Below are positions 22,888 to 60,815 of a stretch of DNA of 64,000 nucleotides, one piece after another. This stretch comes from Stylophora pistillata (lineage: Eukaryota), in contig NW_019218098.1 in NCBI RefSeq assembly GCF_002571385.2, positions 286,137 through 350,136 of the forward strand, written 5' to 3'. The translations under genes and the position numbers were made by a program. Under the pieces are notes generated by a model. It worked only from the letters and a program-made list of their open reading frames with translations, made no database searches and had not been told where the DNA came from. The stretch's first letter is position 1; each line of letters opens with the position of its first letter.

Positions 22888-25788
22888 CGTCAGCCTCACA
22901 TGATATCCCATCTCCAATGTAGTTTTTCCGGCACTCGCAGCTAAAGGATCCCGGATTGTTGAAGCAGTAAGCAACTCCATGACAGTTATGAGTCGATATT
23001 GCACATTCATCGATTTCTGCAGATTTGTAAAAATGTTGTTTAAAGCTTTAACACTGATCAATATGTAACAGATATTGATAACAAGAAAGGATACATTTGG
23101 AACAGGCAAATATTTCTACCGAGGCAAGTTGTGCCATTTCCTTCATATCCTTTAATACATGTGCAGTCAAAAGATCCAATTGTGTTGTTACAAACCGACC
23201 ATGGGTCGCAGTTGTGCACATTTGTGGTACATTCGTCAATATCTACATGAAAAAATGAAACATGCATTTGTTCCTGACAGAACCAGAGATTACTATCAAA
23301 CTTAATTTAAAAAAACGAAAGATTAATTGTTAAAAAAGGGACATGGGTAATAGAAATAGTAATAATAGTAATAGTAATAGTGATAGTAATCAAAGTTTAA
23401 TTTCTTTACGTGGGACATGGTTACCCATATTGCCTGAGCCAGAGGCTCATGTATGAAACGCAAGACAACAACTCGCCCATCCCACCCCAGGGGAGGACAT
23501 CCATCACACAGTAATCTCGTGCGTGAGAAATTAACGTCTCCTACCCCTAATCCTGCAGGAGACGGGACCTCCATTTATTCGTCCCTATCCGAGAAGAGAA
23601 ATGTAAACCATTTCTTGATGTTATAGAAAGGCAGCATATTCTTCTCAATTATTTTAAGAACTTGAGTGCTGGTCCGTCCGGGGCTCGAACCCTCGACCTC
23701 CCGCACATCAGGCCAGCGCTCTATCCATTGAGCTAACTGGGAGGCGGTTGACACCTCAACTACCGTTGAGGTGTCAGACAGACAGTGTATCCAGTCTTAT
23801 GAGTATCTAAATTCTGTTGAAACCGTTTCATCGACGTAATTTAGAAGTTTACAGGGAGGCTTAGCTATTAATTCTTTCAGAATGTAAACAATATACTCCG
23901 TAGCGGTAAGCCACGTACCATTGCAAAATCGTCCATCTCCAGAGTATCCAGGTAGGCATCTACAGATGAATGATCCATATCTATTAGAGCACTTTGCTTC
24001 AGGAGCGCAGTCATCTAGTTCATTCTTACACTCGTTTACATCTGTAGTTTAAAGATCATCAAGAAAGGGAATAAAAGCTTGCATTCATAAAGTGAAAAAT
24101 GAAGTTTTCTTCTATCAAATTGGGAAAATGGCCATTGTCTGTAACCATAAACAAAGTGTTGTATTTTATTTCAAGTTGAGGCGAGGAGGCAGGGATTTTA
24201 CAGAAAACAGAAACAGAAACTTCAATTCTTTAACGCGCTTACTTGTTGAGGCATGTGTACAAGTTCTCTATATGGTGATTAGTGAACTCTTCCATTTCTT
24301 GAAACAATTTTAAAATTGCAAATCTCCATACCGAGTTAAAAAACAAAAGGTAATCGTTTGTCTCACGATGTGGTCACATAGGATGTGGATCGATGTGATC
24401 TTCTTCAGACTCCATACTGAGTCTTGAAAATCCAGCAAAGAATAATTAGTACGCATTTATTAATATTAGCACGCACTATCTTTCTGCATGCGAGACGAAA
24501 TTAATTCAAGAGTTGTATTAAGAGCAACACTTTCTCTCTCAAAATAGCGGTAGTTATTCATATGCTGGTTTTATAGAGCCAAACTCAAACAAATCTTAAG
24601 TGTGCGAGGTGTCTTTGATGCCAATCTAGTTTTCCCCGTGCCACTTATACCAGCCATCTCTACCCGTTGGATCGTTACTGATAGAACGATCTCGTCGGCG
24701 TTAGAGACATTGTTTCGCATAAAGGCTGATAGTTTCGAAAGAAACTGTTTGGGGCTGCGTCGGTGGGAGTAACGAAATAATTTGGATATATCAACAAAGT
24801 TGAAATGGTAATTTGGCCACCGTAATTTATTCTTGTTTTTCTTGTTGCCATGTTCCCACCAATAACGTAGCTCCATTTTCTGCCTTTAAAACCACACACA
24901 ACCCACAATTCCTCTATTCGCTCCGACGAAGGGCTAACGCTCGAAACGTCAGCTTTTGAAATCGTTACGGTGGCCAATTTACCATTTCAACTTTGTTGAT
25001 ATATCCAAATTGTTTCGCATACCCTATTTAAATTCAGAGATAAAAGGTTTTCGACGGTTTTGTAAAAAATGATCATCATTCAAAGTTATCTATAATATAC
25101 CCCATTTGAGAAACTGGGAACGATGTCAAGGTATCCTTTGATGTCACAAGAAATGAGGGCTACATAAAGAGATAAAGTCGCGCTGAGCTGTATAAATATA
25201 AATGTATCAGTTCGGCTTAAAAGAATTCATGCACATGTTTCTTTGAAGTCATCTTCATCAATTTTACATGTGCGGATGTTTGACTATGGACTACGGACCT
25301 CTTCCGAGAAGAGAGCCAGTTTTCGAGAGATAGGCTCGCTGAAAACTGGGAGCTTCGGGATACACATACTTTCCAAGAAAACATAGTGGAGCATATTTCT
25401 GTGCTAGTGAGGAGGTAATGAGTTGGCGATCTTCAAATAGTTATCTTTTTTTGGCACAAAATTTTCTCGTCCATAACTCTTTGGTACGTCGGAAGAAGAA
25501 TTCCATTTTCCTAAAGATCAAAACAACGCAATCATATCTTGACATAAACATTACGTCTGATACGTCATAATTAATGATTACGGGATATCACTTTTCTATA
25601 GAGCCGGATATTACCGGTTTTAGCTGAGACAGATTTGATCACATAGAGTCAATCGTATATCATACCAAAGCAATCAAAACCGTCTCCTGTAAATCCTTGA
25701 AGACAAATACAATTGAATGAACCCACTGTGTTGTTACAATGCGCCATCCCGTGACAATTATGTGTCTGCTCTTGACATTCATCAACAT
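22888..25788 (-). CDS. Gene B four calcium-binding EGF exons (25788-25666, 24041-23919, 23242-23120, 23016-22888)
   Basis: [48 protein letters not shown]; 123/129-nt phase 1-1 exons. Confidence 0.9.
23347..23749 (-). mobile_element. tRNA-derived SINE, full length with (ATTACT)n-like tail
   Basis: Head with A box TAGCTCAATGG and B box GGTTCGAGCCC; core shared with the 26.1, 27.1 and 41.3 kb copies; simple-repeat 3' tail. Confidence 0.85.
24709..25021. mobile_element. Penelope-like element end (partially inverted pLTR) with 12-13 bp target-site duplication
   Basis: Direct repeat ATTGTTTCGCATA at 24709-24721 and 25009-25021; 24722-24825 is an inverted copy of the element end; sequence shared with the GIY-YIG-bearing copy at 60.5 kb. 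Confidence 0.85.
24920..24953 (+). ncRNA. Minimal type I hammerhead ribozyme motif of the Penelope-like element
   Basis: GCT-CCGACGA-A-GGGC-TAAC-GCTC-GAAA-C-GTC-AGC: 3-bp stem I, variant core, stem II, palindromic ACGT stem III, GTC cleavage triplet ending at 24950. Confidence 0.75.
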
Positions 25789-25974
25789 CTGCAGAAATCG
25801 TTCAAGATCACGTAAGTCCCTGTGTTTATCTACCCTGCCTATCCTATCTAACCTTATGTCTTTCTGTCTGTCTGCTTGTGTGTCTGCCGACCTGTGCTTC
25901 TTTTATTTCCGTCAGAGAGAGTATAGAGATCGTACTTCTTCCTAAATTTCTAATGGCCTGTGCGTGTTTCCTTA

Positions 25975-26382
25975 CAGTAATATAGTTTCTATCTGACCAC
26001 TTGCAGCCCAGAGGCTGAATTACGGGTGCAGTGTAAAGTTGAGAACAAACGTCAGCATATCAGGCGCCTCTGGCAGCCGCTTCAGTCTATCGATCTCACC
26101 TTCCCACCCATCCCACCCCAGGGGAGGACATCCATCACACAGTAATCTCGTGTGTGGGAAATTAACGTCTCCTACTCCTAACCCTGCAGGAGACGGGACC
26201 TCCATTTATTCGTCCCTATCCGGGAAGACTAGAATATCTAACAATTTCTTGATGTTATAGAAAGGTAGCAAATTATTCTCAATTGTTTTAAGACCTTGAG
26301 TGTTGGTCCGGCGGGGCTCGAACCCTCGACCTCCCGCACAACACTCCAGCGCTCTAGCCATTGAGCTAACCGGGAGGCGGTT
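25975..26382 (-). mobile_element. tRNA-derived SINE (tail variant 2)
   Basis: Same head and core as 23347-23749; different sequence 3' of the GGGGTGGGATGGG motif; the 3' boundary is approximate. Confidence 0.8.
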
Positions 26383-60000: not shown

Positions 60001-60454
60001 AATATGAAAACAAGTATAGTACGTTTGGATTAAAACGAATTAAATTTAGACGCTTGACTGTCACCATAAAAACAGCTACAGCAATAGACGCATTTTCTAC
60101 ATTGAGCCAATCCAAGGCTTTGTGAAAATGCACTATTTCGTAAGGATTGGCTTTAATGTCTTTGCTGGTGTTTAAAACGCTATTAGCTCTAATCATGTAA
60201 AATGCTACAGAGGCTACAGAGAAAATGATCATGAAGAATTCAACCACGTTCCAAACAGACTTAAAAAACCCTAAGCGTTGTCGATAAAGGTGAACTAACA
60301 TGACTATGAAGTAAAAGAGAACCATTTCCATGAACAGAAACTGGCCGACGAGGAAAAACACCAGAGCTCCCGACTCAGTGCTGTACAACTCGAGTGTCTC
60401 GATTCTTCTTGATGTGTACGCTGCACCAGTAGCTATGGCCTCGTAAAGGTACAG

Positions 60455-60815
60455 AATAATTTGGATATATCTACGAAGTTGAAATGGTAAATTGGCCACC
60501 GTAACGATTACAAAAGCTGACGTTTCGAGCGTTAGCCCTTCGTCGGAGCGAATAGAGGAGTTGTGGTTGTGTGCTTTTAAAGGCAGAAAATGGAGCTACG
60601 TTATTGGTGGGAACATGGCAACGAGAAAAACACGAATAAATTAGTGGAATGAAAAGCGTTCGTTGATCCCTGTGGGATTTAGACTGCCGGTCTGAAAGAT
60701 GAGCTTTTGTTCAAGAGCTTTACGGCTTTCCGTGCTACCTAAGTGCGAGGAAAGACCGCAGATTACCATATGTTGCTTAGAATGATTAGGTAATTATAAA
60801 TTAAAATGTCTAGGG
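60455..60815 (-). mobile_element. Penelope-like element 3' fragment: GIY-YIG endonuclease C-terminus, 3' UTR and hammerhead
   Basis: RHFNL..PNHSKQHMVICGL....ESRKALEQKLIFQTGSLNPTGINERFSFH* (stop at 60643-60641), typical of PLE endonuclease C-termini, followed by the shared element end. Confidence 0.88.
60516..60549 (-). ncRNA. Minimal type I hammerhead ribozyme motif (Penelope-like)
   Basis: Full 34-nt motif about 90 nt downstream of the endonuclease stop codon, same strand. Confidence 0.75.

What the first reader, a model, noticed from the sequence alone, without database searches (positions are those of the whole stretch)
24920..60549. Young Penelope-like family carrying a non-canonical minimal hammerhead (CCGACGA core)
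Seen: five identical 34-nt motifs (24920+, 36153-, 47122-, 47161+, 60516-) and one partial. All have C instead of U at core position 4, an extra A before stem II, and a stem III reduced to palindromic ACGU. One copy lies just downstream of a GIY-YIG C-terminus. Known: PLEs carry minimal hammerheads thought to cleave as dimers. Inference: because the U4C change is fixed in every copy, it is a family trait rather than decay, i.e. a natural core variant that standard CUGANGA searches would miss. Four insertion sites within 36 kb, two at gene-damaging positions.
Basis: partly seen in the sequence, partly recalled or inferred. Interest (0 to 1): 0.7.

Follow-up and report, generated by a model that had tools for sequence, protein, structure and literature searches.

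The report
Coral Penelope hammerhead with altered core
A very abundant, recently active jumping gene in this coral genome carries the small self-cutting RNA motif already published for its family, but with one normally fixed core letter changed (U4 to C) in about 86% of intact copies; nearly all copies were made from uncut RNA, so the motif is likely slowed and not needed for copying.

Summary
Confirmed: five identical 34-nt motifs and one partial, in four insertions, two of them in coding exons. They are pseudo-LTR ends of a Neptune-type Penelope-like element (RT plus GIY-YIG ORF).

The motif is the published Acropora digitifera Neptune minimal hammerhead (PMC4209133, Fig. S3) except for U4C. 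The extra A and the palindromic ACGU are standard for these ribozymes.

Exact copies genome-wide: 3551 C4, 584 U4, 97 CpG-decay control. C4 marks the young dominant subfamily; U4 marks older sister subfamilies. A second, separate C4 clade occurs in metagenome assemblies (one C4 clade rejected, p 0.005).

Of 95 copies, 46 start at the motif's 5' edge (-7 to +7) and 2 at the cut site, so templates were uncut. RNA reads show no break there. U4C is a known natural viroid variant with reduced activity. Folding predicts that it also loosens a self-trapping helix by 2.3 kcal/mol.

Cleavage is untested. Unchecked scan notes report U4C in other genomes' Penelope elements. Verdict: new variant of a known kind.

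The parts
24719..25017 (.). Two-arm inverted PLE insertion: minus arm 24719-24826 (ends at long 3' end, +146), plus arm 24823-25017 (3' UTR, hammerhead, short 3' end about +94); 12-nt target duplication; between exons of PKD1-like copy 1
24920..24953 (+). Minimal hammerhead motif, C4 core; predicted cut 24950/24951
   Evidence: structure as in PMC4209133 Fig. S3
36033..36335 (.). Two-arm inverted PLE insertion inside a LINE-like fragment; left arm and flank are a perfect mirror next to an N gap (likely partly mis-assembled)
36153..36186 (-). Minimal hammerhead motif, C4 core
36186..36216 (+). Partial motif beginning at core position 4 (5'-truncated arm)
47002..47255 (.). Two-arm inverted PLE insertion (arms to +146 and +91), 11-nt target duplication, splitting an EGF-like exon of PKD1-like copy 2
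47122..47155 (-). Minimal hammerhead motif, C4 core
47161..47194 (+). Minimal hammerhead motif, C4 core
60455..60817 (-). 5'-truncated PLE copy (end of endonuclease ORF, 3' UTR, hammerhead, short 3' end) joined to the remaining part of the channel exon of PKD1-like copy 3; the first about 460 nt of that exon are missing
60647..60760 (-). C-terminal 38 codons of the PLE ORF (GIY-YIG tail); 97% identical to copies that extend into the full RT-EN ORF; too short for a Pfam hit itself
60516..60549 (-). Minimal hammerhead motif, C4 core

Best explanation
These are the pseudo-LTR ends of a young, very abundant Neptune-type Penelope-like retrotransposon whose founding copy carried U4C in the family's otherwise unchanged minimal hammerhead; the change likely leaves a slower ribozyme that the element does not need for making copies. 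Shown: anatomy is pLTR with hammerhead, about 200-nt leader, one RT plus GIY-YIG ORF, about 100-nt 3' UTR, pLTR. Copies have two fixed 3' ends (about +90 and +146 from C3), a sharp 5' edge at -7, and head-to-head arms with about 13-nt target duplications. Inferred: transcription starts at -7. The element's protein nicks both DNA strands and starts reverse transcription at two internal sites downstream of the motif. It copies uncut RNA either back to the RNA start (short 100-155 nt copies, about half) or, from the 3' pLTR, into the ORF. Any cleavage would be slow, dimer- or protein-assisted, and on a minority of molecules. C4 spread by riding the most active founding element, not by copy-by-copy selection.
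For: Same motif with U4 is published for an A. digitifera Neptune element. Counts 3551 C4, 584 U4, 97 G5A control. C4 subfamily non-CpG divergence 1.3-1.5% against 4.8-5.0% for U4 copies. A 594-aa open frame with RVT_1 and GIY-YIG hits is followed by a C4 motif. Full-length decayed copy L207 has C at position 4 in all three motifs. 5' ends of 95 of 99 sampled copies: 46 at -7..+7, 0 at -8..-24, 37 further upstream, 2 at the cut site, 10 elsewhere downstream. Genome-wide filter for ends at the cut site gave 20 matches, 5 with clean unique flanks by eye, against 6 and 9 at two neighbouring positions, out of about 4300 anchor copies. RNA depth is flat across the cut site with no end pile-up. In a lizard PLE, hammerhead mutants do not affect insertion and uncut RNA is the main template (PMC11167929). 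U4C lowers activity in vitro but suffices in vivo in a viroid (PMC3088659). CUGA-turn mutants show low activity in a full mutant scan (PMC9901934).
Against: No cleavage assay was possible. The missing cut-site footprint holds for U4 copies too (7 of 20 cut-site matches are U4-subfamily, but also 2 of 6 and 6 of 9 in controls), so it does not measure the effect of U4C. Cleaved RNA may simply not be copied or integrated, and ordinary RNA-seq dominated by host read-through is a weak test of ends. The other 33 letters are unchanged across subfamilies whose flanks differ by up to about 30% (found by a pattern that demanded this). That argues for continued constraint, not dispensability. Folding predicts U4C eases access to the active fold. 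The -7 edge as a transcription start is inferred; 30 of 46 short copies have an inverted arm, so fold-back could contribute.
Confidence: 0.6

Rival explanations
1. The C4 motif is catalytically dead. The 34 letters are kept for another job at the very start of the transcript (downstream promoter element, or a structure bound by the element's protein), and U4C is neutral for that job.
For: The motif begins 4 nt after the inferred RNA start. No cleavage footprint in genome or RNA. Monomers of both versions are predicted to be trapped by a core-to-cut-site helix (pair probability about 0.98) and the active dimer lies 10.7-15.2 kcal/mol above two monomers. Naiad PLEs lack canonical hammerheads altogether (PMC8557442).
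Against: All other core letters, stems I and II and the dimer palindrome are kept exactly. Between the two local subfamilies the motif differs at 1 of 34 sites against 23 of 211 in flanks (suggestive only, about p 0.1 by my binomial estimate). U4C retains activity in a viroid.
Confidence: 0.2
2. U4C is compensatory and favoured: in this coral family the U4 core is perfectly complementary over 6 bp to the cut-site strand (CUGACG with CGUCAG) and locks itself; C4 breaks one pair, restores stem I and lowers the barrier to the active dimer, offsetting the catalytic cost.
For: Monomer ensemble energy -12.4 (U4) against -10.1 kcal/mol (C4); gap to active dimer 15.2 against 10.7; stem I probability 0.25 against 0.96. 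C4 occurs in two separate clades (AU p 0.005 against one clade), each near-fixed in its assemblies (35 of 35 in Ga0126343). C4 creates a mutable CpG yet dominates.
Against: Four of six trap pairs remain in C4. Nearest-neighbour energies ignore tertiary contacts and proteins. Changing position 7 would break the trap at no known catalytic cost and was not seen to dominate (not counted genome-wide). U-to-C is a simple transition, and one founding element fixes any neutral change. Unchecked scan notes report U4C in unrelated PLE hammerheads, where this trap may not exist.
Confidence: 0.15
3. The motifs are decayed or mis-assembled relics and C4 is copy-level noise.
For: One of the four sites (36033-36335) is a perfect mirror beside an N gap.
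Against: 3551 exact copies; C4 is linked to subfamily-diagnostic flank letters; about 83% of 6410 raw RNA reads from an independent 2026 run carry C at this position; CpG decay runs from C to T, not the reverse.
Confidence: 0.02

Closest known systems
Minimal hammerhead of the Acropora digitifera Neptune PLE (Cervera and De la Pena 2014, PMC4209133, Fig. S3 and Table S1)
   Same: 33 of 34 letters identical, same 12-nt upstream flank; 3-bp stem I, 4-bp stem II with UAAC loop, extra A before stem II, palindromic ACGU in place of stem III; located in both pLTRs of a Neptune element.
   Different: C instead of U at position 4, outside the published descriptor. None of the 56 motifs of Fig. S3 shows C4; the three core variants listed there are C3U.
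Natural U4C hammerhead variant of a viroid (Ambros and Flores 1998, as cited in PMC3088659; original not held)
   Same: Same substitution, naturally occurring; reported as considerably less active in vitro but sufficient in vivo.
   Different: There a rare variant in a canonical hammerhead; here the majority allele of thousands of copies of a minimal, stem-III-less motif.
PAc Poseidon element of Anolis (Frangieh et al. 2024, PMC11167929)
   Same: Two internal reverse-transcription starts defining a tail, both strands nicked and extended, uncut RNA as main template, no RNA-seq ends at the cut site. This genome's copies show matching marks: two 3' ends, one per arm in 46 of 51 inverted pairs.
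   Different: Different clade; here the motif lies about 230 nt upstream of the start codon rather than overlapping it; tail about 56 nt rather than 30-40; canonical core in PAc, shown to cleave with protein help.
Non-LTR retrozymes (bioRxiv 10.64898/2026.07.22.740005, part 1 read)
   Same: Type I hammerheads derived from PLE pLTRs.
   Different: Retrozymes are tandem non-coding repeats; these copies are dispersed, single or inverted, and continuous with a coding element.

Membership tests
EN+ Penelope-like element, Neptune type | Single ORF with RT and C-terminal GIY-YIG endonuclease | tested here: met
   L112, 594 aa without stop: RVT_1 31.7 bits (cut-off 29.6); GIY-YIG 20.9 bits, E 4.5e-4 (just under the 22.6 cut-off)
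EN+ Penelope-like element, Neptune type | CX2-5CxxC zinc-finger-like linker before the endonuclease (Neptune and Nematis) | tested here: met
   CX4CxxC seen in translations; definition in PMC8557442
EN+ Penelope-like element, Neptune type | pLTR direct repeats flanking the ORF, with inverted 5'-truncated copy and tail at one end | tested here: met
   L207 has inverted arm, 5' pLTR, ORF, 3' pLTR; 46 of 51 inverted pairs have one long and one short arm
EN+ Penelope-like element, Neptune type | RT phylogeny within Neptune rather than Nematis | not tested
   Assigned from the linker motif and the near-identical published Neptune hammerhead only
EN+ Penelope-like element, Neptune type | Spliceosomal intron in the pLTR or leader (some PLEs) | tested here: inconclusive
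   Branch-point-like and acceptor-like letters 18 nt before the ATG; no splice joint among the listed joints, leader depth only 20-45 reads per direction
Minimal type I hammerhead of metazoan PLEs | First core box CUGANGA | tested here: not met
   CCGACGA in all five full window copies; descriptor
Minimal type I hammerhead of metazoan PLEs | Stem I of 3 or more bp, stem II starting G10.1-C11.1, extra nucleotide between 9 and 10.1 | tested here: met
   Sequence; stem I 0.96, stem II 0.98 predicted in the 41-nt 5' end; features listed
Minimal type I hammerhead of metazoan PLEs | Second box GAAA-NN-UH with palindromic 15.2-16.2 for dimer stem III | tested here: met
   GAAACGUC; ACGU self-duplex -3.1 kcal/mol
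Minimal type I hammerhead of metazoan PLEs | Self-cleavage after NUH (as dimer or protein-assisted) | not testable with these tools
   Indirect tests negative or weak:
Rfam hammerhead families | Match to a curated covariance model | tested here: not met
   No hammerhead family at E up to 5-10 for the window, a C4 copy, or a U4 copy, so Rfam misses both versions
Non-LTR retrozyme | Head-to-tail tandem non-coding units each with a hammerhead | tested here: not met
   Window copies and the 99 sampled copies are dispersed, single or inverted, and 37 run into the element's 3' UTR or ORF

The most novel reading that the evidence does not exclude
U4C is a repeatedly selected unlocking mutation: in coral Neptune elements the canonical core locks itself in a 6-bp helix over the cut site, and C4, gained at least twice, breaks it so that the 'damaged' ribozyme cleaves as well as or better than its canonical parent. 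This would be a natural case of a core substitution rescued by folding, against the view that CUGA-turn changes cannot be offset.
Probability: 0.15. Interest if true: 0.7.

Novelty: new variant of a known kind. Interest (0 to 1): 0.4.

Why it matters
What Penelope hammerheads do is an open question. Here a matched natural pair (U4 and C4, one letter apart, in one genome) is available, and the version with the altered core is the one that expanded most recently. That makes 'is cleavage needed for PLE spread?' testable with two short RNAs. The thousands of young copies also record in vivo the steps seen in vitro for one lizard PLE: two internal start sites, uncut template, two-strand priming with about 13-nt duplications. 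Practically, CUGANGA descriptors undercount this family about seven-fold here.

Tried and rejected
Rfam scans found no hammerhead model for C4 or U4 copies.

U4 copies as mere CpG reversion of C4: rejected for most, since 584 U4 against 97 for the opposite-strand decay product, and U4 is linked to its own flank letters; 3 of 55 C-subfamily copies in the anchor-based sample are revertants.

A conserved long downstream hairpin pairing position 4 with the CGG block: rejected, z-scores -1.4 to +0.6 and it depends on fragment length.

A subfamily difference in cut-site footprints: not found.

RNA ends at the cut site and a leader intron in raw reads: not seen; reads come from both strands equally and follow copy number, so are mostly host read-through.

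An intact, gap-free, full-length copy was not found among the loci of three DNA searches, each of which scored only its 40 best candidates; long copies mostly fall in assembly gaps.

Lunse, Weinberg and Breaker 2017 and Ambros and Flores 1998 could not be read. The former surveys variant PLE hammerheads and may already list C4 forms. Searches showed no report of U4C in a PLE hammerhead.

A sequence look-up of earlier scan notes found nothing.
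Full report
OBSERVATION. The five 34-nt motifs are present and identical, plus one partial arm. They sit in four insertions in a cluster of three tandem PKD1-like genes (F5/8, REJ, PLAT and channel domains). Two insertions are head-to-head arm pairs with 11- and 12-nt target duplications (24719-25017, 47002-47255). One is a mirror-perfect pair beside an N gap and is probably partly mis-assembled (36033-36335). 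One is a 5'-truncated copy with the last codons of the endonuclease (60455-60817). The 47002 insertion splits an EGF-like exon (cysteine pattern and paralog comparison; Pfam gave no hit on the 32-aa paralog exon). The 60455 copy replaces the first about 460 nt of the channel exon of gene copy 3, which has further stops and may already have been dead.

WHAT IT IS. Walking upstream through the genome gave one ORF with RT, a CX4CxxC linker and GIY-YIG. L112 has 594 codons without a stop followed by a C4 motif. L207 is a decayed full-length element with inverted arm, 5' pLTR, leader, ORF and 3' pLTR; its three motifs read ACGACGA, CCGACGA and CCAACGA, all with C at position 4 (the third read from the printed translation). 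The supplement of PMC4209133 lists the same motif with U4 for an Acropora digitifera Neptune element. That paper names the extra nucleotide before stem II and the palindromic stem III as general features, and its descriptor demands CUGANGA. Only U4C is new. RNA runs holding the element include ones labelled coral metagenome.

TRAIT, NOT DECAY. Exact 28-nt counts in 398 Mb: 3551 C4, 584 U4 (either C or U at 7), 97 for G5A, the opposite-strand CpG decay product. A downstream anchor gives 4332 copies. Among loci fetched for the first 100 of these, 48 of 55 scored copies of the main subfamily start CC and 3 CT; 7 of 9 copies of the sister type start CT. Non-CpG divergence is 1.3% against 5.0% (1.5% of 127 and 4.8% of 17 over all own loci); the U4 group may mix subfamilies. 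In raw RNA reads of a 2026 run, 1061 of 6410 reads show U4.

RECURRENCE. A capped metagenome scan gave 121 loci with 128 motifs, 82 U4 and 46 C4, sorted by assembly: for example 35 of 35 C4 in Ga0126343, 33 of 33 U4 in Ga0126337. On a tree of downstream flanks only (34 rows: 10 of 34 own C4 rows, one long row dropped, about 114 columns), own C4 groups with U4 copies and apart from the other C4 clade. Holding all C4 together is rejected (p-AU 0.005; the tree had been seen before the test). Two gains is the simplest reading with U4 as outgroup state; one gain with later losses is not excluded, since C4 makes a mutable CpG. The pattern required the other 33 letters, so motif conservation across these clades (flank distance up to about 0.3) is ascertained.

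HOW COPIES ARE MADE. With C3 as 0, 5' ends of 95 of 99 sampled copies (4 at N gaps dropped) fall as follows: 7 at +29..+42, 2 at the cut site (+28), 3 at +8..+27, 46 at -7..+7, none at -24..-8, 37 further upstream. 3' ends form two peaks, about +90 and +146. Of 51 inverted pairs without N, 46 have one long and one short arm and 35 have duplications of 11 or more letters, mostly 12-14 (pairs drawn from the window and loci L147-L286, part of which were enriched for short copies). Raw reads show loose ends at the same places. A genome-wide filter for ends at the cut site gave 20 matches; by eye 5 have clean unique flanks, 13 are fold-backs or joins over GCT microhomology and 2 are internal changes. 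Neighbouring positions gave 6 and 9 matches. The filters pass only about a third to a half of true ends. So templates were almost all uncut, for U4 and C4 alike. This fits PMC11167929, where reverse transcription starts at two internal sites, both strands are primed and hammerhead mutants insert normally. The -7 edge as transcription start is my inference.

DOES IT CUT? Not testable here. RNA depth is flat across the site and no end pile-up is listed, but reads are equal on both strands and track copy number, so they are mostly host read-through; the 5' ORF has depth under about 20. Literature: U4C considerably lowers activity in vitro yet suffices for a viroid in vivo (PMC3088659); CUGA-turn mutants are low in a full scan (PMC9901934); minimal PLE hammerheads are weak even as dimers. 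Folding adds a twist: the U4 monomer is predicted to lock its core to the cut-site strand over 6 bp. C4 leaves 4 bp, restores stem I (0.96 against 0.25) and narrows the gap to the active dimer from 15.2 to 10.7 kcal/mol. This is a model result only.

PAPERS SEEN. PMC4209133: parts 1-2 of 4 and the whole supplement text. PMC11167929: parts 1-2 of 4. bioRxiv 10.64898/2026.07.22.740005: part 1 of 5. PMC3088659, PMC6765202, PMC8557442, PMC9901934, PMC3907566: passages. Lunse et al. 2017 and Ambros and Flores 1998: not held, seen only as citations; the first may already hold C4 forms. Searches showed no report of U4C in a PLE hammerhead. Earlier scan notes (unchecked, seen after my reading was formed) report U4C in Penelope-type repeats of two other genomes.

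VERDICT. A real, heritable core variant in a published family: new variant of a known kind, interest 0.4. Most likely a slowed ribozyme carried along by the most active founding element (0.6); dead motif kept for another job (0.2); compensatory unlocking (0.15).

Noticed in passing
G000-wide; window 24719-25017 and 47002-47255: Two-arm insertions pair one long (+146) and one short (about +90) 3' end (46 of 51) and carry mostly 12-14 nt target duplications (35 of 51 have 11 or more): a clean in vivo record of two-strand priming at two RNA sites.
   Followed up: yes
G000-wide; L207 position 5961: Sharp 5' edge of short copies 7 nt before C3, with none ending in the next 17 nt upstream; likely the element's transcription start. 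Many U4 copies in metagenomes appear to start at the same letters.
   Followed up: partly
L119, L131, L140 leader; L207 about 5745-5780: Branch-point-like and acceptor-like letters ending 18 nt before the ATG suggest an intron in the leader that could remove the hammerhead from the mRNA; no splice joint seen at low depth.
   Followed up: partly
window 12420-64000, minus strand (and a further PKD1-like gene at about 1431-11335, plus strand): Tandem PKD1-like genes with F5/8, EGF-like, REJ, PLAT and channel exons; copy 2 and copy 3 are broken by this element.
   Followed up: partly
window 35816-36552: 367-nt perfect mirror including a LINE-like flank, next to a 479-N gap: likely assembly artefact caused by the hairpin insertion; L157 shows a long-long pair beside a gap too.
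   Followed up: partly
window 26110-27130 and 27143-28163: 1021-nt 100% identical direct duplication across a single N at 27131: likely scaffolding artefact.
   Followed up: partly
window 23476-23740, 26107-26409, 27140-27442, 41266-41486: A second repeat with a tRNA-like segment, in both orientations; earlier scan notes on this genome describe such a unit as Penelope-mobilised.
   Followed up: no
L256: One copy with U4-subfamily downstream letters but C4 core and C4-type upstream letters: possible recombinant or intermediate.
   Followed up: no
window 1-82: 39-nt inverted repeat at the window start.
   Followed up: no
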